Below are positions 3,715-36,922 of a stretch of 44,225 nt of DNA, piece after piece. Position 1 is the first letter of the stretch, and the number at the start of each line of letters is the position of its first letter. Both the position numbers and the translations under genes were made by a program. The DNA lies in the IMG/VR virus record IMGVR_UViG_2744054854_000007. One strand, written 5' to 3'. The notes below the pieces were generated by a model. The model did no database searches. It saw only the letters and a list, made by a program, of their open reading frames with translations, and was not told the origin of the DNA. The stretch is from a virus (lineage: Duplodnaviria > Heunggongvirae > Uroviricota > Caudoviricetes).

Positions 3715-4853
3715 ACAAAATTCACCCCGCCAAGCACCGGAATTTCGCCAACAGCAAAGGTGATATTGGCCGTCGGAGAGTTAAGAATATAGCCCGTCGT
3801 GCCGCTAACACCGCCGATACTCCCGTTAATATCAGAGAGGTAAACTTTCCCGGAACCATCAGGGTTAGCTTCATCAAAAAACAGCGCCGTCAGCGCGTCT
3901 TTTATCCCCTGAACTGTGGTGCTGTCGGCATTTTTGATCCCAGAGATTTCAATATTGATGACTTTCTTGATCGGGGAACATACGAAAACAATGGCAGTGT
4001 CTGTCTGCTGCGGATAGATGTGGTCGGCGACAGCGAGCTGGTCTCCGGTGGCTTTAACAGCCCCCCAGTCCTCAAGTTGGGATATTCCGTCGGTACCGAC
4101 CGGAAACCCACCATTGTCATTCCGATCACACATGATATACACGCCAACGGTCCCGGCCCCGTTCAGACGCCGCTTTACCCACGCGCGGGTGACGCCCGAA
4201 ACCTCAAGCGCCCATTTTTTATAATCGGCGTCGCTTCCACCCTGAGGCGGATTCTGCCATGCCAGCAAGCCACGACTGCGAAAATCCTCTTCCGTTTCAA
4301 TATCGGCTCCGCCGGTCGCAGCGGACAGTAACGTTACCTGTGGATCCACGCCAGCAATATTCGCGTCCAGGGTCATTATGGTCCCGGCATCAGCGTTACC
4401 GCGCGCGCCTCCACCCGTTACATCACTGGTAATATCCGGCAGTATGGCCGTCACCGCGACGATACCAAATCCATCTGCCTGAATTTTAAGATCTGCATCC
4501 GTCCGGTACTGGTATCCGTCCCCGCGGTTAATGATCGAGCCAACAGGGATAATACAGTCAACACTGCCACTAGCCTGTACCGCAGGCGACTTCGCCGCTG
4601 CAGCTGGTTTTCTGAATACCTGCTTAAGGGCCATCCACCCGGCGAGATACTCATCGGTAGAGGTAAACGGGTTTGTCTGCAGGGCAATATAGTCAAGGTA
4701 GGCGTAATGCAGATGCCCCATCCCCGCATCCATGTCAGCCAGTACCTTCAGGTTCGCGAAGCGCAGGAGCGCACCAACATCCTCAAGCTCCGCCTGCATA
4801 AATTTCCGGTTTCCGTCGCGGAGTTCGCTCAGCGTCGGTCGTTTAAACGGCAT
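3711..4853 (-). CDS. Baseplate J-like protein (Mu gp47-like)
   Basis: Start taken at internal ATG 4853 (MPFKRPTLSEL), 1 nt after upstream stop; 380 aa; synteny in Mu-like baseplate cluster. Confidence 0.75.
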   Translation of the reverse strand: MPFKRPTLSELRDGNRKFMQAELEDVGALLRFANLKVLADMDAGMGHLHYAYLDYIALQTNPFTSTDEYLAGWMALKQVFRKPAAAAKSPAVQASGSVDCIIPVGSIINRGDGYQYRTDADLKIQADGFGIVAVTAILPDITSDVTGGGARGNADAGTIMTLDANIAGVDPQVTLLSAATGGADIETEEDFRSRGLLAWQNPPQGGSDADYKKWALEVSGVTRAWVKRRLNGAGTVGVYIMCDRNDNGGFPVGTDGISQLEDWGAVKATGDQLAVADHIYPQQTDTAIVFVCSPIKKVINIEISGIKNADSTTVQGIKDALTALFFDEANPDGSGKVYLSDINGSIGGVSGTTGYILNSPTANITFAVGEIPVLGGVNFV

Positions 4854-21961: not shown

Positions 21962-22108
21962 GGGACATCACCTGGGACATTTTCTGGGGTGGGACATTCG
22001 CCTGGGACATTTTTGCCATGTCCCACCAGAATGTCCCACTGGAATAAACTGGAATAGCCAGAGCTGGCGAGGTGTCCGTAATGATCGCCAGAGGTGGGAC
22101 ATGGGACA
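21961..22108. repeat. cosB-like array of TGGGACAT / ATGTCCCA octamers (candidate terminase small-subunit binding sites)
   Basis: Four direct copies at about 21961, 21973, 21990, 22003; two inverted at about 22018 and 22031; two more direct at about 22095 and 22102; abuts Nu1-like start. Confidence 0.6.
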
Positions 22109-22251
22109 CAAATCTGAAAGTTGTAGCTAGGAAAACACCGCGGCGCGCAATGCCCGTACCTTACAAAAGTCTCAGGAAGGACCCATTTTTTTATTGGCTT
22201 CGACCATTCGCTCCGACTATGATTATTCCTATTCAATACAAGGAGAATGTA

Positions 22252-22755
22252 ATGGGTAACAATATAATCAAAATAACTTTCGTAGCCGCAGTGCTGGCAT
22301 CACCAATTGCTCATGCCCAGTGGGTAACTAATACTGAAGATGACCTTTTCTCTGGTGGTAAGAAAGCAATGATGCTTGGCGAGGTTTCATCCGACAATGG
22401 CGCCATTGTGTTTGACTGCACTAAAGAAAAGCTATCGGCGGCATACGTTGAAATGGATAAAAGCACCGAATCACTATCAGAGGTACCAATGGACCTGATA
22501 ATGAAGGTCGACGGGAATACCGCAGTGAAGCTCGATGCTACCCTTTCAAGACGTAATGTTCAGAGCCTCCAGATTCAATCGGATGACGCGGACCAACTAA
22601 AAACAGTGCTTAAGCAGCTTCAGGGGGCGAAATCCAAAGTGTTAGTTGGTGTGCAAACAAAGGATGGCGGAAACCAGCATTCCATGTCAGCCAATGTTTC
22701 TGGATCGACAACTGCAGTAAACAGCTTCATAAAAGCTTGCGAAATTAACTTATAA
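22252..22755 (+). CDS. Secreted protein of unknown function (Sec signal peptide), candidate moron
   Basis: ATG 22252 with AAGGAG SD; MGNNIIKITFVAAVLASPIAHA/QW signal-like N-terminus; opposite strand to the flanking late genes. Confidence 0.6.
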   Translation: MGNNIIKITFVAAVLASPIAHAQWVTNTEDDLFSGGKKAMMLGEVSSDNGAIVFDCTKEKLSAAYVEMDKSTESLSEVPMDLIMKVDGNTAVKLDATLSRRNVQSLQIQSDDADQLKTVLKQLQGAKSKVLVGVQTKDGGNQHSMSANVSGSTTAVNSFIKACEINL

Positions 22756-25327: not shown

Positions 25328-25608
25328 TAATGCCTCAGCGTATCAACGAGACGCGCCACATTCCCACGAGCCCATAACACGGCAGCGCAAATAAGAAGGT
25401 TTACGATGACCACCATCCAGTGTGACTCCTGGTAGAGGCCGAACAGATATCGGAATGGAACGCTGGCATAAACCAGCACAACGAAGTACGCCAGCAATGA
25501 TATAGCGGGGCGATGTCTTGCCCCTTCACGCTGGTAGAACATCAGGACAAGGACGATGACCGCACAAATACCTGCATTCACCATCGCTGACGGATCACTT
25601 GTTACCAT
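25327..25608 (-). CDS. Small membrane protein (holin partner/antiholin candidate)
   Basis: ATG 25608 with GGAGGAGGGG SD; hydrophobic segments; between holin and endolysin. Confidence 0.5.
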   Translation of the reverse strand: MVTSDPSAMVNAGICAVIVLVLMFYQREGARHRPAISLLAYFVVLVYASVPFRYLFGLYQESHWMVVIVNLLICAAVLWARGNVARLVDTLRH

Positions 25609-25990
25609 TGCTGGCCCCTCCTCCACGGAATCGCGAAAGAATACTGAACAGGCTTCCCAAATCCTGACTGTTGAAAAATGTGAGCACTTTGATTGTCATC
25701 GCCGCCACTACAACAGCACCAAGTGCGTCTAATGGTCTGTCACTATACCCGGTAGCCTGTGACAGCTTTGAACCCACCAGTCCAGCGGCAAGAACGCCAA
25801 CAATGAATGACGTCATGAAGTAAGCAATCAATCGTACTCGTGTGATATTTGCCGCTGTCGCTACATAAAATACTGCACCAGCGAATGCGCCAAATACCAC
25901 GCCATAATCAATACCGGTTGCAAGACCAAATACGCTGGCTCCCATCAGGCCACCAGCCGCGACCGTAGTGCCAGAAACAGGATCGGACAT
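25595..25990 (-). CDS. Putative holin (multi-TM membrane protein)
   Basis: 131 aa, Gly/Ala-rich hydrophobic helices; first gene of lysis cassette. Confidence 0.5.
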   Translation of the reverse strand: MSDPVSGTTVAAGGLMGASVFGLATGIDYGVVFGAFAGAVFYVATAANITRVRLIAYFMTSFIVGVLAAGLVGSKLSQATGYSDRPLDALGAVVVAAMTIKVLTFFNSQDLGSLFSILSRFRGGGASNGNK

Positions 25991-26033
25991 TAAGCCCCCT
26001 CTTATTGCTGTGAGTCCTCTCAGGAATGAGGGG

Positions 26034-26062
26034 AATAAAAAAGGCCACCCGAAGGTGGCCTT
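26034..26062 (-). terminator. Rho-independent terminator (minus strand)
   Basis: AAGGCCACC-cgaa-GGTGGCCTT hairpin followed on the minus strand by TTTTTTATT; 3' of the peptidase cargo gene. Confidence 0.6.
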
Positions 26063-26084
26063 ATGTGATTCGAGGATATATCGT

Positions 26085-26984
26085 TTAGCGAATATTCCAC
26101 ATCATCGTGCTGCCATTATGATTTTCAATAATTTTCGCAGCAGGACTCGTACCAAATGAATGCATGTAGCAATGATGTATAGTCAGCACAAGATCCTGCA
26201 GAGTTTGGTCGCTCTCCAGCTCCATAATGTTCAAACCAATGCTTTGCGCTTTATCCAGATGAATATGTCTAGCATGCGCATAGGTTGTATGATGATTGTT
26301 TAGCTCATCACAAATTCGCTTAGCCTTATCTTGAGCGTTAGCATGACCTGCAAACATACCAGTACACAGCCATTTTTGTACTATTTCATTAGCCCAAACA
26401 ATAGCCTTTTCACATTCACCAATGAGAGTCGGGTTTAGCTTTTGAAGAGTAAATTGCCACCATTGGATCGCTGCAGCATTTTCAGAAATCTCTTTCTTAG
26501 CTCGCTCATACTCTTCTATGATCGCATGAGATGATAAACCACCAAGCTGCGGATCAATTGGCCCCAAATTTGACTGTTTGCCCAATACAATCTGTTCGGC
26601 ACAGCAAGCCAACATGGTCCCACAACTCATTGAGATCATAGGAACAATTGCCCGGATATTGGTCCCAAATTTTGAACGAAGATAATGACCAATAGATTCC
26701 AATGCTGCAATATCTCCCCCTGGGGTATGAAGCAAGATATCCAGCCCTAATGACGTGTCTAAGCCGTTAATGGCTGACATAAGACCATTTTTATCGTCAT
26801 CTGACATTTGTATTAAATGCTGCAACCCAGGCCCCCCCTTCTGGAGGAAGCCTGAGTAATATGAAATTACGTTTCGGCCTGTATGCTTCGACAACTCTCG
26901 TAAGTACTTGTGGCGAACCTCATCCGCTGGTGTACGTTGAGCAATAGTACCCATCTCGCCCAACACGTCTATCCAATTTGGCAT
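26085..26984 (-). CDS. ClpP/S49-fold serine peptidase-like cargo protein (second, non-morphogenetic)
   Basis: 299 aa; ...LDILLHTPGGDIAA... motif of S49/SDH-type peptidases (memory); visibly AT-richer than backbone; 12 nt downstream of a co-directional small ORF. Confidence 0.55.
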   Translation of the reverse strand: MPNWIDVLGEMGTIAQRTPADEVRHKYLRELSKHTGRNVISYYSGFLQKGGPGLQHLIQMSDDDKNGLMSAINGLDTSLGLDILLHTPGGDIAALESIGHYLRSKFGTNIRAIVPMISMSCGTMLACCAEQIVLGKQSNLGPIDPQLGGLSSHAIIEEYERAKKEISENAAAIQWWQFTLQKLNPTLIGECEKAIVWANEIVQKWLCTGMFAGHANAQDKAKRICDELNNHHTTYAHARHIHLDKAQSIGLNIMELESDQTLQDLVLTIHHCYMHSFGTSPAAKIIENHNGSTMMWNIR

Positions 26985-26996
26985 GTTCTTCTTTTA

Positions 26997-27197
26997 TCAA
27001 TATGAGTACAGTTGATGAGATTGTTGCTCTACAGCTTCAACTGAACTTACAGTGCTGTAGGAGTATAGAACACCACTACGTATAGCCTGGTCGTCTTGCT
27101 GAGCAAGAACGCGCATAGCATAGTGTTGTACAGATTCACCTTTATGGAGTTCCTCTGATTTAATACCTACTTTTTCGTAAAATTCTGCAGCGCCCAT
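26997..27197 (-). CDS. Small protein (66 aa) co-transcribed with cargo peptidase
   Basis: ATG 27197 with GAGGGA SD; no recognisable motif. Confidence 0.45.
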   Translation of the reverse strand: MGAAEFYEKVGIKSEELHKGESVQHYAMRVLAQQDDQAIRSGVLYSYSTVSSVEAVEQQSHQLYSY

Positions 27198-27463
27198 GAT
27201 TTTGTCCCTCGTTATAGCTACATCTAGCTCAAAAACAAAACAACAAACACAAGATGTAGTGATTTACGGTCTTTAAATACACGAAAAGCCTCAAAACGAG
27301 GCTTTAAAAGAGTCTTTTTGATAAAGAACTAAACAGACTATAGCGAGTCAATTACAGATTTGACAAGTAAAAAAGGGATTAAAAGCTCATAAAAACGGCT
27401 TTTTTGGATTATTCATCATCTTTTTTGATGCACGTAACAATCCAAATATAAAAACAAAGTTTC

Positions 27464-27490
27464 GACAAAAAACCCGCTCGATGGCGGGTT
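27464..27490 (-). terminator. Rho-independent terminator (minus strand), tR'-like, just downstream of Q-like gene
   Basis: AACCCGC/GCGGGTT 7-bp stem followed on the minus strand by T6. Confidence 0.6.
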
Positions 27491-27555
27491 CTTAATTCTT
27501 TGTCGACCTACGAAGCTATGGCGACGATATCAGATTTACATGAAATATATGCGTT

Positions 27556-28245
27556 TCAATCCAGTTTTGCAAGACTTGAGTCTAAATTTGTCGCCTTTTG
27601 TTGTGAACGTGATCGCGTAACCTGCAATAAAGCCCCGCTATCCAGTCGCAGGAAGATGCTGCGCATCTCAACCCAGCGGTCAGTAAAGGTCTCTGACCAG
27701 TTTTTTGGCGTTACGCCAACCAGCGACGCCAGCGCCTGATATTCGTACATCTCACGCCCTGCCAGCTCTGCTTTCACGTCCTGAGCCGCGAGCCAGACAA
27801 GCTTCTTCAGGCGCTCCATCGTTTTGCCGGCCACCTTCTTCGCGCCGAGCTGCTCCCGGAACTCTGCCCACGCCCATTGAGTGATTTCCACCTGATAGCA
27901 CCAGCGCACGTTCTCGCTATAGTTCCATAGCAGCCACGCTTTCTGGTGTTCTTCGAGTGACATCAGTGCGCGGCGCCACGATGCGCTGGAGTATTCAACC
28001 GGCTGCACCAGGGGAATATGCGAACCCTTGGCATGCGACTGCTTGCCCGGTATTGGCGGGTTATCCAGCGTAATCATTTCCCCGGTCACTTCATCCAGCA
28101 CTCGAGGCTTTTTACGTTTAAACGTTCCCGTATCGAACTGCGCGTTTTCAAGCCACGCCATCAACTGCCCTTTCGTCGCACCACTTAAATCGGCGGTGGC
28201 CACCATCAACTGCTGGCGCACGTATTCGAGAAATTGAGTATTCAT
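27556..28245 (-). CDS. Putative late-gene antiterminator (Q-like)
   Basis: 229 aa; position between nin/RusA region and lysis genes with a terminator about 65 nt downstream; family from memory only. Confidence 0.45.
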   Translation of the reverse strand: MNTQFLEYVRQQLMVATADLSGATKGQLMAWLENAQFDTGTFKRKKPRVLDEVTGEMITLDNPPIPGKQSHAKGSHIPLVQPVEYSSASWRRALMSLEEHQKAWLLWNYSENVRWCYQVEITQWAWAEFREQLGAKKVAGKTMERLKKLVWLAAQDVKAELAGREMYEYQALASLVGVTPKNWSETFTDRWVEMRSIFLRLDSGALLQVTRSRSQQKATNLDSSLAKLD

Positions 28246-30782: not shown

Positions 30783-31124
30783 TTATTTGCAGGTAAATTG
30801 CACTACATCACCCTGAGACATTTGAAAGAATCGGTAATCACCATCTCCACGTCTTTGTATAATATTGCCCTCTTTAGTCGCACCAGATGGGTATGTCTTT
30901 CCTTCCGGTTTTTCTGGCCTAATCTTGCTTGTGGTGTAAGAAATGGTCCCAAAGTTAACTGTTATTGAATTTCCGATGTCAGTTATATTTGCCTTTACTT
31001 CGCCGGATTTTACTTCATTTGAGGTCATACTCCTTGCTATTCCAGAGCATACATATTCCTTTGCTTCAACGGCATGGGGCATAAGAAAGCCAATTCCTAA
31101 CAACGTGATCGCCAAATATTTCAC
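30783..31124 (-). CDS. Small secreted protein (113 aa), candidate moron
   Basis: GTG 31124 seven nt after AAGGAG; VKYLAITLLGIGFLMPHAVEA/KE signal-like N-terminus; two Cys in mature part; AT-rich by eye. Confidence 0.5.
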   Translation of the reverse strand: MKYLAITLLGIGFLMPHAVEAKEYVCSGIARSMTSNEVKSGEVKANITDIGNSITVNFGTISYTTSKIRPEKPEGKTYPSGATKEGNIIQRRGDGDYRFFQMSQGDVVQFTCK

Positions 31125-31286
31125 TTTATCTTCTCCTTGATGAGTCCCCCTCGATACTTTGGGAGGGATTATACAAAAGAAAAGTGTGGTCATGGCTATT
31201 TTTGGTAATGTTATTCGATGATAATTCACTTTATTTTTTAAATCATAATGCTATATTTCTTTCACCCCTTGCTTGCAAGGTACAAC

Positions 31287-35202: not shown

Positions 35203-35886
35203 ATGAGTTTTTCTGAGCGATTAGATCGCGCAATGAATGAGGCGGGTTATACACAGGGCAAGCTAGCTAAGGCAGTTGGCATGGCACAGTCAAGTGTTAA
35301 CAAGCTGCTAAATGGTGCATCAAGCTCAAGAAAAACGGTCGAGATAGCTTCTGTTCTCAATGTTCGCCCTGAATGGCTTTCCACGGGATCCGGACCGATG
35401 CGTAACGATGGCCAGCTACCGCCTCCCATTACCGCGACAAAAAAAGACTCAAACATATTCAGAGTTGACGTACTTGACCTGACATTTAGCGCGGGGCCAG
35501 GTTCTTTCATGATTTCTGAGTTTGTTGAGGTTCTACACGCCATTGAGTTCACAACCGAACACGCTCGTTCACTCTTCGGAAATCGTTCTCAGGAAGACGT
35601 AAAAGTAATGACGGTCGATGGCGACAGCATGTGTCCAACTATACAGTCTGGTGACAGATTGTTTTTCGATATTTCTGTAAGAAACTTCAAGGTCGACGGT
35701 GTTTATGCGTTCGTTTTCGGACAACATTTCCATGTGAAGCGCTTGCAGATGCAGGGCGATAGGTTGGCAGTTTTGTCTGATAACTCAGCTTATGAGAAGT
35801 GGTACATTAACGAAGGTAATCAGGATCAACTCTACGTAATGGGTAAGGCATTGATTCATGAATCAATAAAGTATAACCGATTGTAA
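35203..35886 (+). CDS. CI-like repressor (HTH + S24 LexA-type autopeptidase domain)
   Basis: 227 aa; N-terminal HTH QGKLAKAVGMAQSSVNKLLNG; C-terminal GDSM Ser and downstream Lys in the S24-type arrangement. Confidence 0.85.
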   Translation: MSFSERLDRAMNEAGYTQGKLAKAVGMAQSSVNKLLNGASSSRKTVEIASVLNVRPEWLSTGSGPMRNDGQLPPPITATKKDSNIFRVDVLDLTFSAGPGSFMISEFVEVLHAIEFTTEHARSLFGNRSQEDVKVMTVDGDSMCPTIQSGDRLFFDISVRNFKVDGVYAFVFGQHFHVKRLQMQGDRLAVLSDNSAYEKWYINEGNQDQLYVMGKALIHESIKYNRL

Positions 35887-35930
35887 AACTGTACTTTTTA
35901 TCTACTTTGGCCCAGAAAAGGATCATAATT

Positions 35931-36293
35931 ATGAAATCGGAATTATTTCATAGTGAAGCAAACTCCGAGATTATCACAGCGGATGAGTTCATTGATTTCA
36001 TAAATTCATTCAAAAAACCAATAACTTGCCAAATCTGCGGGAACCAGTCATGGTCTGTAGTTGGTGCCTTTGATCTTGATGTAGAAGAAAATCAGCCAAA
36101 ACATCATGTGATCGAAACACTTAGTTATGCACAATACAAACCTGATACTGATAGTGCTGTGACATATCCTGGCGGTATGCCACTATTTCGAATCACGTGT
36201 GATCACTGCGCACATGTACTGCTTTTTTCTTATAAAAAAGCCAGGACACTGATTAATAAAAGAAAAGAAGATCAAGGAGAGGATGGGAAGTGA
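35931..36293 (+). CDS. Zn-ribbon-like small protein, cargo gene 1 downstream of cI
   Basis: ATG 35931 (track ORF begins at TTG 35907); CQICG...CDHCAH cysteine pairs; AT-rich by eye. Confidence 0.5.
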   Translation: MKSELFHSEANSEIITADEFIDFINSFKKPITCQICGNQSWSVVGAFDLDVEENQPKHHVIETLSYAQYKPDTDSAVTYPGGMPLFRITCDHCAHVLLFSYKKARTLINKRKEDQGEDGK

Positions 36294-36922
36294 TGGGCCC
36301 ATCTCTCAAAGCTGTCCCAGACTGCGGTTCTGGCATTGATAAAGATGACCTGTACCCCAATGTTCAAAACAGACTACGCGTCGATAAAGAAGAAATGTAT
36401 ACTAACTTTATCAAATCAACAGATGAAGCTAATGAAACTGATGGGGGAAATGAAATGTCATCAGTTAGCCGTGAAGAAATGCAAGCACTTCTAGCTGCCA
36501 ATAAGGCGGAGATGGAGTCCATTGCATCTTCGATTAGAGCTGAAATGGCTTTGTCACGCGAGAATATGAACGTTCAGCTGGCATCGCTCAATTCATCTAT
36601 TAGCTCTATTTCTTCTAAAATTGAAGGGAAAATGGATAGCGTTGATGGGGATGTAAAAGCCATCAATGGCAAATTCGAAGGTATACAAGGGCAAATTACA
36701 GGAATAAACACTGCGATTGGCGGTATTCAATCAGGTATTTCCACTAGGCTTGCTATTTTTGGCGTTATCATTGCGGTTGTCGTTGCATTACCTAGTCTTG
36801 TTTCTGCCTTGAAGAGTGATCCGCCCGTAGTTCAACCAGTAGCGCAGCAACCTGTTATCATCCAATTACCTCAAGAACCAACTACTCCACGAGTACTTCA
36901 CCAACAGGAAAAATCAAAGTAA
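36293..36922 (+). CDS. Coiled-coil protein with C-terminal transmembrane anchor, cargo gene 2
   Basis: ATG 36293 overlapping upstream TGA; heptad-like Ser/Ile/Glu-rich region; hydrophobic LAIFGVIIAVVVALPSLVSAL near C-terminus then Pro/Gln-rich tail. Confidence 0.5.
   Translation: MGPSLKAVPDCGSGIDKDDLYPNVQNRLRVDKEEMYTNFIKSTDEANETDGGNEMSSVSREEMQALLAANKAEMESIASSIRAEMALSRENMNVQLASLNSSISSISSKIEGKMDSVDGDVKAINGKFEGIQGQITGINTAIGGIQSGISTRLAIFGVIIAVVVALPSLVSALKSDPPVVQPVAQQPVIIQLPQEPTTPRVLHQQEKSK

What the first reader, a model, noticed from the sequence alone, without database searches (positions are those of the whole stretch)
26034..27490. Terminator-bounded two-gene cargo between Q terminator and holin: small protein plus a second ClpP/S49-fold serine peptidase
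Seen in sequence: a 66-aa ORF (26997-27197) and a 299-aa ORF (26085-26984) on the minus strand, 12 nt apart, each with an SD, sit in a stretch that looks clearly AT-richer than the phage backbone. It is flanked by a strong hairpin plus T-run just after the Q-like gene (27464-27490) and another just before the holin (26034-26062), and preceded by about 260 bp of AT-rich non-coding DNA. The large protein carries an LLHTPGGD motif typical of ClpP-fold S49/SDH-type peptidases. Established: the phage already has its own S49 prohead protease in the head module, and the Q-to-lysis interval is a classical site for lysogenic-conversion and defence cargo in lambdoid phages. Inference: this is horizontally acquired cargo, possibly a two-component abortive-infection or host-modifying module in which the small protein regulates or is a substrate of the peptidase. 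I do not recognise it as a named defence system.
Basis: partly seen in the sequence, partly recalled or inferred. Interest (0 to 1): 0.75.

Follow-up and report, generated by a model that had tools for sequence, protein, structure and literature searches.

The report
Prophage cargo: small protein plus SDH protease
Between the late-gene activator Q and the lysis genes, this E. coli prophage carries a self-contained two-gene cassette, a 66-residue protein plus a ClpP-fold "SDH" serine protease. The same pair travels together on phages and other mobile DNA across many bacterial phyla, has the make-up of a named candidate anti-phage system (FS_HP_SDH_sah), and its mechanism is unknown.

Summary
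Two co-oriented ORFs (66 aa at 26997-27197, 299 aa at 26085-26984, minus strand) lie in an AT-rich block (GC 0.41 against 0.51) that ends in a strong terminator.

One correction: the hairpin after Q is Q's own target terminator tR'. It ends an isrJ-like short RNA and is not a cassette boundary.

The large protein is a PF01972 SDH-type ClpP-fold protease with conserved Ser120, Asp144 and several His. It is unrelated in sequence to the phage's own S49 head protease.

New here: the small protein belongs to a fast-evolving family found directly upstream of this protease in almost every locus examined. These include Proteobacteria, Planctomycetota, Desulfobacterota, and Porphyromonas and Gordonia phages. 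The pair occupies typical accessory slots: after Q, after Mor/C, after cI, beside integrase, and beside TA/Fic genes. A sibling prophage with 99% identical Q lacks it.

The architecture matches DefenseFinder's "FS_HP_SDH_sah". The name was verified in a paper. Its origin in a PICI study, and the equivalence of SDH_sah with PF01972, come from my memory. PADLOC has no model for either protein.

The cassette is best read as a new prophage-borne member of that poorly understood defence family. Moderate interest.

The parts
27544..27572 (-). PR'-like late promoter (TTGCAA-17-TATATT) overlapping the 3' end of Q. This is context, not part of the cassette.
   Evidence: Consensus scan, 9 of 12 matches. 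It lies immediately 5' of the isrJ-family RNA match. The function is inferred by analogy with lambda PR'.
27464..27540 (-). Short isrJ-like RNA that ends in the tR' hairpin (27471-27490) and its T run. This is the terminator that Q-modified polymerase reads through. It marks the point after which sibling prophages diverge.
   Evidence: Rfam RF01393 isrJ, 58.7 bits (threshold 37), E 1.4e-9, full-length match at 27468-27540. Hairpin found. The ET881 prophage is 99.2% identical up to about 27467 and then differs. The hairpin is also kept after Q in Nissle.
26021..27411 (-). Extent of the mobile cassette, defined as the block shared at about 80% identity with the Nissle 1917 prophage.
   Evidence: The megablast match covers query positions 122-1512 of window 25900-27600. 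Annotated context.
27337..27366 (-). Cassette promoter-like site, TTGTCA-18-TATAGT.
   Evidence: Best site in the scan, 10 of 12 matches. Both hexamers are invariant in Nissle while the flanks diverge. A CTATAGT-type -10 at the same place in the E. coli 120899 cassette. No transcript data.
27276..27305 (-). Leader hairpin AAAGCCTCG-TTT-TGAGGCTTT followed by a T-rich run. It looks like a terminator or attenuator.
   Evidence: An equivalent hairpin lies 86-93 nt upstream of the small ORF's ATG in 7 cassettes scanned (E. coli x4, Klebsiella, Shewanella prophage, Aeromonas), with 5 different stem sequences. In an eighth, Shewanella phage MuM16-1, it lies 87 nt upstream once the small ORF's start is re-read at a later Met.
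27248..27261 (-). Box A, CACTACATCTTGTG, an imperfect palindrome about 63 nt upstream of the ATG.
   Evidence: Conserved column block in the alignment of 8 leaders. The same motif lies upstream of the Methylomonas cassette. Function unknown.
27216..27229 (-). Box B, AGCTAGATGTAGCT, palindromic at 12 of 14 positions, about 32 nt upstream of the ATG. It is complementary to part of box A (CTACATCT / AGATGTAG).
   Evidence: In the E. coli 120899 cassette the two boxes have different sequences but stay complementary (ACATATAGT / ACTATATGT).
26997..27197 (-). 66-aa partner protein ('HP'). It is acidic (pI 5.1), with the motif VLYSYST around the near-invariant Tyr47 and a C-terminal LYSY.
   Evidence: ORF. 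phrog_25714, E 6.7e-30. No Pfam, NCBIfam or PADLOC match. Family of 45 clusters at 50% identity, mostly 56-79 aa. dN/dS 0.11 against the Nissle copy. Located upstream of the protease across phyla.
26085..26984 (-). 299-aa SDH-type ClpP-fold serine protease. Candidate catalytic residues are Ser120, Asp144 and one of His237/240/270/271 (full-length numbering).
   Evidence: PF01972, E 2.2e-21, 76.6 bits (cut-off 31.3). phrog_11747, E 9e-127. Conserved residues. AF2 model pLDDT 89.4, pTM 0.86. Fold matches: ClpP and giant-virus SDH proteinases. dN/dS 0.023 against Nissle.
26033..26062 (-). Intrinsic terminator of the cassette, AAGGCCACC-TTCG-GGTGGCCTT plus T6. It should insulate the lysis genes in the lysogen and must be read through by Q-modified polymerase.
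   Evidence: Conserved in Nissle with one compensatory pair change.

Best explanation
This is a self-contained accessory ('moron') operon inserted in the late operon of a lambdoid prophage, just downstream of Q's terminator tR'. It encodes a two-protein module: a small, fast-evolving partner protein and a strongly conserved SDH-type ClpP-fold serine protease. The module is most likely an anti-phage or inter-element conflict system of the type DefenseFinder lists as FS_HP_SDH_sah.

**Shown**
- The gene pair is real and under purifying selection.
- The protease keeps its conserved Ser, Asp and His residues.
- The pair is inherited as a unit across many phyla and sits in accessory slots of phages and other mobile elements.
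- It is dispensable for the phage, because a sibling prophage lacks it.
- It carries its own leader and terminator.

**Inferred**
- In the lysogen the operon is transcribed at a low level from its own promoter through a leader attenuator, and its 3' terminator keeps the lysis genes silent.
- During lytic growth, Q-modified polymerase reads through all three terminators.
- The protease is the effector.
- The small protein is its cognate protein-level partner, either a pseudo-substrate inhibitor or a cleavable substrate. The near-invariant Tyr-Ser/Thr motif would be the contact or cleavage site.
- Infection by another phage would release or redirect the protease onto a phage or host target and abort or block that infection.
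For: **Anatomy and composition:**

**Placement in the late operon:** isrJ-like RNA / tR'.

**Optional cargo**
- Nissle copy after Q.
- ET881 empty site.
- 80 of 5426 E. coli genomes carry a homolog, in three different late-operon slots.

**The pair is conserved**
- The small ORF is seen directly upstream in 11 of 17 loci by eye.
- An HMM detects it directly upstream of, or overlapping, the protease start in L003, L006-L011, L014, L018-L022 and L024-L028.
- It is also found in L029, L031 and L032 and in L037, L038, L040 and L041.
- Starting from three small proteins always led to an adjacent MPNW... protease.

**Accessory or defence-like slots**
- After cI in a Shewanella prophage.
- After Mor/C in Mu-like phages.
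- Beside an integrase.
- Beside YafQ and Fic genes.
- Beside HicAB in Porphyromonas phages.
- In Gordonia phage BeeGee.

**Protease is likely active:** invariant S120, K136, H86, H237, H240, H270 and H271, and conserved D144 (invariant in A4; one Asn exception in A3); confident ClpP/SDH fold.

**Selection:** dN/dS 0.023 (protease) and 0.11 (small protein). The small protein's dN is five times higher.

[quoted passage not shown] This fits the Porphyromonas phage hits found here.
Against: - No experiment or transcript data were available, so a defence function is not shown for this copy.
- The link to FS_HP_SDH_sah rests partly on my memory. I recall that SDH_sah was Pfam's former short name for PF01972, and that the system comes from Fillol-Salom et al. 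2022 (Cell 185:3248). That paper is not in the library. DefenseFinder's profiles could not be run.
- PADLOC-DB v2 has no hit for either protein or for six homologs.
- In Alphaproteobacteria, Planctomycetota and others the neighbours are mostly housekeeping genes, so the link to mobile elements is not universal.
- A fusion AF2 model gave only low confidence for the small protein (pLDDT 51-69) and no usable interface.
- The position in the late operon also allows a role in the phage's own lytic cycle.
Confidence: 0.6

Rival explanations
1. Toxin-antitoxin-like addiction module. The protease would be toxic when free, and the small, labile partner would neutralise it. The pair would stabilise the prophage or island rather than defend against phages.
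For: - Small gene first, larger gene second, with a 4-12 nt gap or overlapping starts.
- The partner evolves much faster than the enzyme.
- Palindromic boxes lie upstream.
- The pair occurs as an isolated two-gene island among housekeeping genes and next to other TA genes.
Against: - The small protein has no recognisable DNA-binding or antitoxin domain.
- Its pI ranges from 4.4 to 10 across the family.
- I know of no established type II toxin that is a ClpP-fold protease (own knowledge).
- TA and abortive-infection roles are not mutually exclusive, so this rival overlaps with the main explanation.
Confidence: 0.15
2. Phage-beneficial lytic function. The pair would be expressed by Q read-through late in infection, and the protease would degrade a host defence or housekeeping protein (counter-defence or takeover), or exclude superinfecting phages.
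For: - In E. coli, Aeromonas and Shewanella Mu-like phages the cassette sits inside the late operon, after Q or after Mor/C and before lysis or packaging genes.
- It is carried by isolated phages.
Against: - It has its own promoter-like site, leader and terminator.
- It lies directly after cI in a Shewanella prophage, a lysogen-expressed slot.
- It lies at prophage ends facing outward.
- Some chromosomal contexts have no phage genes.
Confidence: 0.15
3. Second morphogenetic or lysis component, for example an auxiliary prohead or scaffold protease of this phage lineage.
For: ClpP-fold proteases are common head-maturation enzymes. There are weak PHROG hits to head maturation proteases (E 0.008-0.05).
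Against: - The phage has a complete lambda-type head module with its own S49 protease.
- The two proteases share no significant similarity (E 0.16).
- A sibling prophage lacks the cassette.
- The pair occurs in non-phage contexts.
Confidence: 0.02

Closest known systems
FS_HP_SDH_sah (DefenseFinder system; from memory, described in E. coli/Klebsiella phage-inducible chromosomal islands by Fillol-Salom et al. 2022, Cell 185:3248)
   Same: Two genes: a small hypothetical protein plus a PF01972 (SDH) protease, carried on a phage-related mobile element of Enterobacteria. The model name was verified.
   Different: - Here the pair is on a lambdoid prophage in the Q-to-holin slot, not on a PICI.
- Sequence relatedness to the reference system could not be measured.
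- To my knowledge the mechanism of the reference system is not established either.
NfeD / stomatin operon pairs (archaeal PH1510 protease and PH1511 stomatin)
   Same: A ClpP-fold serine protease encoded next to a partner that is its substrate (own knowledge). PH1510 is among the nearest solved sequences (E 3e-4), and there is a weak NfeD1b_N Pfam signal.
   Different: - The NfeD1b_N score is below Pfam's cut-off (22.3 against 40).
- No Pfam family is detected on the small partner, so there is no SPFH partner, and the small proteins read here show no obvious hydrophobic segment.
- The conserved-residue pattern is Ser-Asp-His, not the Ser-Lys dyad.
Lit protease of prophage e14 (activated by the T4 Gol peptide)
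   Same: A prophage-encoded protease that acts as an abortive-infection effector (own knowledge).
   Different: Lit is a single-gene zinc metalloprotease with a known target (EF-Tu). Here there is a serine protease of a different fold, an obligatory small partner and no known target.
CalpL-CalpT-CalpS (type III CRISPR-associated Lon-like protease cascade)
   Same: The concept of a protease whose operon partner is a small cleavable regulator (own knowledge).
   Different: There is no SAVED or other sensor domain, no sigma / anti-sigma pair and no CRISPR linkage. This is an analogy only.
Classical morons of lambdoid late operons (stx in 933W, bor in lambda) and rexAB after cI
   Same: An insertion with its own promoter and terminator between conserved late genes, with deviant composition. 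The same pair occupies the rexAB-like slot in a Shewanella prophage.
   Different: The gene content is unrelated.

Membership tests
Pfam PF01972 SDH-type ClpP-like serine proteinase | Scores above Pfam's gathering threshold over most of the domain | tested here: met
   76.6 bits against a cut-off of 31.3; residues 22-253 match profile positions 35-244 of 286.
Pfam PF01972 SDH-type ClpP-like serine proteinase | ClpP-like fold | tested here: met
   AF2 pLDDT 89.4, pTM 0.86. Foldseek best PDB hits are ClpP and SppA (E 2e-4). Best viral hits are annotated SDH proteinases of giant viruses, E 1e-9, TMq 0.6.
Pfam PF01972 SDH-type ClpP-like serine proteinase | Catalytic Ser, Asp and His in that order along the chain (family description recalled from Pfam) | tested here: inconclusive
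   Ser120 (MSCGT) is invariant in 37- and 40-sequence alignments. Asp144 (GPIDPQ) is invariant in the 40-sequence set and has one Asn exception in the 37-sequence set. His237, 240, 270 and 271 are invariant and lie downstream.
NCBIfam NF047768 Clp_like_SDH (equivalog) | Scores above the curated cut-off | tested here: not met
   91.3 bits against a cut-off of 250. The protein belongs to a divergent clade of the SDH superfamily. RefSeq nevertheless names it 'SDH family Clp fold serine proteinase'.
DefenseFinder FS_HP_SDH_sah | A gene that encodes an SDH_sah (PF01972) protein | tested here: met
   PF01972 hit. That 'SDH_sah' is Pfam's former short name for PF01972 comes from memory. The existence of the model name was verified.
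DefenseFinder FS_HP_SDH_sah | An adjacent co-oriented small 'HP' gene | tested here: met
   A 66-aa ORF lies 12 nt upstream, and the family is linked to the protease across phyla. Homology to DefenseFinder's HP profile was not tested.
DefenseFinder FS_HP_SDH_sah | Both proteins pass DefenseFinder's own profile HMMs and co-localisation rule | not testable with these tools
   The DefenseFinder models are not available here. PADLOC-DB v2 has no model for either protein.
DefenseFinder FS_HP_SDH_sah | Confers resistance to phages when expressed | not testable with these tools
   Requires experiment. The original paper is not in the library.
Moron (accessory transcription unit in a phage operon) | Absent from closely related phages at the same site | tested here: met
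   The ET881 prophage is 99.2% identical through Q, PR' and tR', and the next gene is a holin 282 nt after Q.
Moron (accessory transcription unit in a phage operon) | Own terminator and deviant base composition | tested here: met
   Terminator at 26041-26062. GC 0.41 against 0.51.
Moron (accessory transcription unit in a phage operon) | Own promoter | tested here: inconclusive
   TTGTCA-18-TATAGT is conserved between cassettes, but there are no transcript data. A hairpin between this site and the genes leaves the true start site uncertain.
Type II toxin-antitoxin | Small upstream gene tightly coupled to a larger downstream gene | tested here: met
   Gaps of 4-12 nt, or overlaps (by 8 or 26 nt where read).
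Type II toxin-antitoxin | Antitoxin with a recognisable DNA-binding domain | tested here: not met
   No Pfam family matched more than one of the 43 small-protein members, and none better than E 0.01. No PDB relative. pI ranges from 4.4 to 10.
Phage head-maturation protease (S49 / gpC type) | Located in the head module and related to S49 prohead proteases | tested here: not met
   It lies between Q and the holin. The phage's own S49 protease is at 16555-17421. BLASTP between the two gives E 0.16. NCBIfam Clp_rel_HeadMat scores 16.8 against a cut-off of 120.

The most novel reading that the evidence does not exclude
The pair could be a protease-substrate switch rather than a simple enzyme with a chaperone.

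- The small protein would be cleaved, or held as a pseudo-substrate, at the near-invariant Tyr-Ser/Thr motif. That motif is duplicated as a C-terminal LYSY in the enterobacterial, Aeromonas and Shewanella branch.
- Cleavage or release would be the signal that arms the system.
- The conserved leader (a terminator at a fixed 86-93 nt from the ATG plus two palindromic boxes) would be a dedicated regulatory device that tunes or triggers expression.

Together with the cross-phylum spread, which reaches Actinobacteria and Bacteroidota phages, and the structural kinship with giant-virus SDH proteinases, this would define an ancient, virus-associated proteolytic immune module with a mechanism not yet described for any defence system.
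Probability: 0.2. Interest if true: 0.7.

Novelty: new member of a known kind. Interest (0 to 1): 0.42.

Why it matters
If the reading is right, this is a natural prophage-borne copy of a defence family for which, to my knowledge, no mechanism, trigger or target is known. A close copy is also present in the probiotic strain Nissle 1917.

This analysis adds several things that make the family experimentally tractable:
- a definition of the small partner family and its conserved Tyr motif;
- evidence that the two genes are inherited together from Proteobacteria to Actinobacteria and Bacteroidota phages;
- a list of invariant protease residues to mutate;
- a conserved regulatory leader.

It also shows that the partner gene is often left unannotated in public records. 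That would make automated detection of the two-gene system fail.

Tried and rejected
1. **Complex prediction.** The tool takes single chains only, so I tried a fusion of the small protein and the protease with an unpaired alignment. The job ran, but the small-protein part had pLDDT 51-69 and no coordinates or PAE are accessible, so nothing could be concluded.
3. **Literature.**
   - Ten searches found no paper on PF01972/SDH proteases in phage defence.
   - The only relevant find was one DefenseFinder survey that names the model.
   - One search was wasted on a too-permissive term.
   - The Fillol-Salom Cell paper and the DefenseFinder supplements are not in the library.
4. **Small protein as a DNA-binding autorepressor of the palindromic boxes.** I considered this and downgraded it. 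The protein has no DNA-binding domain and its charge is very variable.
5. **RiPP-like or signalling-peptide precursor with a maturation protease.** Rejected because no modifying enzyme, exporter or signal peptide is present in any context.
6. **Recent duplicate of the head protease.** Rejected.
7. **Formal covariation count on the leader hairpin.** Not run, because MAFFT placed the 5' arm one column off in some rows. The evidence is the per-sequence hairpin scan.
8. **In-frame arrangement of the two ORFs** (TGA TAA plus three codons). I considered it as a possible read-through fusion, but the frame relation is not kept in other loci.
9. **Pfam census of 112 neighbouring ORFs in 13 distant loci.** It showed mostly housekeeping genes, so universal linkage to mobile elements is not supported.
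Full report
**1. What is in the sequence**

On the minus strand the order is as follows:
- Q, 27556-28245 (PF06323, E 1e-101);
- a 66-aa ORF, 26997-27197;
- a 299-aa ORF, 26085-26984;
- a holin, 25595-25990 (PF16931).

The two ORFs are 12 nt apart. The small ORF is preceded by GAGGG. The region from 26001 to 27500 has GC 0.37-0.45 against 0.51-0.55 in the flanks. Computed exactly, the cassette is 0.412, the 266-nt leader 0.316 and the window 0.510. GC3 is 0.284 for the small ORF and 0.400 for the protease, against a mean of 0.522 (sd 0.083) for 44 long ORFs.

Strong hairpin-plus-T-run sites lie at 26062-26041 and 27471-27490. A third lies inside the leader at 27305-27285. The phage has a lambda-type head module with its own S49 protease at 16555-17421. 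That protease shows no significant similarity to the cargo protease (E 0.16).

**2. Correction on the upstream hairpin**

Rfam places a full-length isrJ-family RNA (RF01393, 58.7 bits, threshold 37) at 27468-27540. It ends in the 27471-27490 hairpin. A promoter-like site, TTGCAA-17-TATATT, at 27572-27544 overlaps the end of Q. By analogy with lambda PR', its short 6S transcript and tR' (established knowledge), this is the short transcript on which Q acts.

The cassette therefore lies inside the late operon. Q-modified polymerase has to read through tR', the leader hairpin and the cassette terminator to reach the holin. In the lysogen the cassette terminator would keep the lysis genes silent. 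This last point is inference.

**3. It is optional cargo**

- The block 26021-27411 recurs at about 80% identity directly after Q in a different lambdoid prophage of E. coli Nissle 1917. There it is followed by another small gene, a DNA methyltransferase and then the holin.
- Seven complete genomes carry the exact window version.
- With more sensitive search, 80 of 5426 complete E. coli genomes carry a homolog, in three arrangements: Q-cassette-holin, Q-cassette-methylase-lysis, and lysis-cassette-terminase.
- A sibling prophage in strain ET881 is 99.2% identical through Q, PR' and tR' up to about 27467. It then continues with a different holin only 282 nt after Q, with no cargo.

**4. The protease**

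Family and fold:
- It matches PF01972, the SDH-type ClpP-like proteinase, at 76.6 bits against a cut-off of 31.3.
- It matches phrog_11747, of unknown function.
- It falls below the NCBIfam equivalog cut-off, 91 against 250, so it belongs to a divergent clade.
- The family is very large. More than 7800 database proteins scored E <= 0.001. Full-length identity is 50-58% in Pseudomonas, Methylomonas, Shewanella and Desulfosporosinus and 40-49% in Alphaproteobacteria, Planctomycetota, Acidobacteriota and Verrucomicrobiota.
- An AlphaFold model is confident (pLDDT 89.4, pTM 0.86). It matches ClpP and SppA in the PDB and, better, the annotated 'serine dehydrogenase proteinases' of giant viruses (E 1e-9, TMq 0.6).
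- No close relative has a solved structure.

Conserved residues, from alignments of 37 and 40 homologs, in full-length numbering:
- invariant His86 (LLHTPGG), Ser120 (MSCGT), Lys136, His237, His240, His270, His271, Glu287 and Asn288;
- Asp144 (GPIDPQ) invariant in the 40-sequence set, with a single Asn exception in the 37-sequence set.

The alignment tables list these one lower, because I cut Met1 by mistake.

**5. The small protein and the linkage of the two genes**

A single-sequence search found only four clusters, and no Pfam, NCBIfam or PADLOC model matches. However, inspecting the DNA upstream of distant protease homologs showed a 53-69-aa ORF on the same strand in 11 of 17 loci.

A profile built from these ORFs retrieved 36 proteins. 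Searched exhaustively, it retrieved 45 clusters at 50% identity, nearly all 56-79 aa. The consensus is GFxxLGL...Y.gAe.FA..FKKCSIL.....V.YSssS followed by a variable tail. One Tyr is near-invariant (Tyr47 here, in VLYSYST). The enterobacterial, Aeromonas and Shewanella branch also ends in LYSY/LYTY.

With the profile, a homolog is detected directly upstream of, or overlapping, the protease start in these loci:
- L003, L006-L011, L014, L018-L022 and L024-L028;
- L029, L031 and L032;
- L037, L038, L040 and L041.

It is visible by eye in L005, L015, L023, in Gordonia phage BeeGee (which ends VRYSTSATR) and in a Porphyromonas phage. Only L004 showed nothing.

Going the other way, three small proteins chosen from the profile search each sit just upstream of a gene that starts MPNW....

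Between the window and Nissle copies:
- the protease is 94% identical (dN 0.039, dN/dS 0.023);
- the small protein is 73% identical (dN 0.188, dN/dS 0.11).

Across E. coli and Klebsiella variants the figures are 63-84% for the protease against 33-55% for the small protein. Both are real genes under purifying selection, and the partner evolves several times faster.

**6. Where the pair lives**

Besides the Q-to-lysis slot, the contexts are:
- between Mor/C and the lysis genes in an Aeromonas Mu-like prophage, with a TIR gene nearby, and in Shewanella phage MuM16-1;
- directly downstream of, and co-oriented with, the cI-type repressor of a Shewanella prophage, the slot that rexAB occupies in lambda;
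- at a prophage end beside the integrase in Pseudomonas simiae;
- at the end of an integrative element in Methylomonas;
- after a GH25 lysis cassette next to host miaB/mutS-like genes;
- beside HicAB inside the structural module of Porphyromonas gingivalis phages;
- after the tail genes of Gordonia phage BeeGee;
- next to YafQ and Fic genes in a metagenomic chromosome.

In 13 loci from Alphaproteobacteria, Planctomycetota and other groups, the neighbours are mostly housekeeping genes with only occasional phage or defence domains. The pair therefore also exists as a tiny stand-alone island.

**7. A conserved leader**

The promoter-like TTGTCA-18-TATAGT (27366-27337) and the hairpin at 27305-27285 are nearly invariant between the window and Nissle, while the surrounding DNA diverges.

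Seven cassettes scanned (four E. coli types, Klebsiella, a Shewanella prophage and an Aeromonas Mu-like prophage) each have a G+C-rich hairpin plus a T run 86-93 nt upstream of the small ORF's ATG. An eighth, Shewanella phage MuM16-1, fits at 87 nt once its small ORF is read from a later Met than the annotated start. The hairpins have five different stem sequences:
- GCCTC/GAGGC;
- CCTCC/GGAGG;
- GAGCTCC/GGGGCTC;
- CCCCG/CGGGG;
- CCCCGC/GCGGGG.

Downstream of the hairpin, two copies of an imperfect palindrome (roughly CACnACATnTnGTG) sit at about -63 and -32 from the ATG. In the window these are 27248-27261 and 27216-27229. The same box lies upstream of the Methylomonas cassette.

I could not decide whether the hairpin is a 5'-UTR attenuator or the end of a separate short RNA. 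I also could not decide whether the boxes are operators, promoter elements or an RNA stem. The small protein is an unlikely DNA binder, because no domain is detected and its pI varies from 4.4 to 10.

**8. Comparison with what is known**

PADLOC-DB v2 has no model for either protein or for six homologs. Searches for the Pfam accession, for 'serine dehydrogenase proteinase' and for S49 in a defence context found nothing relevant.

[quoted passage not shown] This agrees with the Porphyromonas phage hits found here.

From memory, and not verified here:
- SDH_sah was Pfam's former short name for PF01972;
- 'HP' stands for hypothetical protein;
- 'FS' stands for Fillol-Salom et al. 2022 (Cell 185:3248), who tested accessory genes of E. 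coli and Klebsiella phage-inducible chromosomal islands for anti-phage activity.

That paper is not in the library. The gene content and architecture of the window cassette match this system. Membership by DefenseFinder's own profiles, and the phenotype, could not be tested.

**9. Most likely mechanism**

Shown:
- a two-gene unit that is inherited together;
- a protease with conserved catalytic-type residues;
- its own regulatory leader and terminator;
- dispensability for the phage;
- placement in accessory and defence-type slots.

Inferred:
- low-level expression in the lysogen;
- the protease as effector;
- the small protein as its protein-level partner, either a pseudo-substrate inhibitor or a cleavable substrate at the Tyr-Ser/Thr motif. 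A precedent exists in the ClpP-fold NfeD proteases, which cleave their operon partner stomatin;
- activation on infection, leading to proteolysis of a phage or host target.

I give 0.6 to 'conflict or defence module of the HP+SDH type' and much less, about 0.2, to the specific partner-as-substrate switch. The rivals are a TA-like addiction module (0.15), a lytic-cycle function for the phage (0.15) and a morphogenetic role (0.02).

**10. Verdict**

The cassette is not an unnamed novelty. It is best filed as a new prophage-borne member of a listed but mechanistically unexplored defence family.

What this analysis adds is the definition of the partner family, its cross-phylum linkage to the protease, the invariant residues, the conserved leader, and the observation that the partner gene is often unannotated. 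Interest is moderate.

Noticed in passing
window 35203-36922 (+): A cI-like repressor (HTH_3 + Peptidase_S24, 35203-35886) is followed on the same strand by two low-GC ORFs: 35907-36293 (128 aa, GC 0.38) and 36290-36922 (210 aa, GC 0.43). Neither has a convincing Pfam or PADLOC match. This is the rexAB-like slot, so they are a second candidate cargo pair in the same prophage.
   Followed up: partly
window 27464-27572 (-): An isrJ-family short RNA (RF01393) starts at a promoter that overlaps the end of Q and ends at the hairpin after Q. This fits a PR'-tR' unit, and suggests the Salmonella 'sRNA' family isrJ corresponds to the Q-regulated leader transcript of lambdoid prophages.
   Followed up: partly
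window 30783-31229 (-) and 22072-22755 (+): Two further low-GC ORFs without Pfam matches: 148 aa at GC 0.40, and 227 aa at GC 0.45. The second is on the opposite strand, between the lysis and terminase genes. They are possible additional morons.
   Followed up: no
L040:8797-8994; L034 about 3822-3995; NZ_AP021894 copy of the window: The small partner gene is not annotated in several public records: E. coli 120899-type prophages, Gordonia phage BeeGee upstream of gp31, and some exact copies of this cassette. Annotation-based tools that need both genes would miss the system there.
   Followed up: yes
model of window 26085-26981 (-) against BFVD: The best viral structural matches of the protease model are multiple 'serine dehydrogenase proteinase' paralogs of giant viruses (Marseillevirus, Mimivirus, Klosneuvirus, Hyperionvirus), ahead of phage ClpP-like or prohead proteases.
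   Followed up: no
window 26985-26999 (-): The small ORF and the protease ORF are in the same reading frame, separated only by TGA TAA AAG AAG AAC. The frame relation is not conserved in other loci (for example L024), so it is probably coincidental.
   Followed up: partly
L023:5784-7034: In the Aeromonas Mu-like prophage, a TIR_2-domain gene and a 127-aa partner lie on the opposite strand between gemA and mor, just upstream of the HP+SDH pair. This gives two putative defence cargos side by side.
   Followed up: no
L002:10821-11924 / L042:423-1526: The same protein (WP_016236995.1) in the early region of this prophage lineage is named 'helix-turn-helix domain-containing protein' in one RefSeq record and 'ImmA/IrrE family metallo-endopeptidase' in another.
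   Followed up: no
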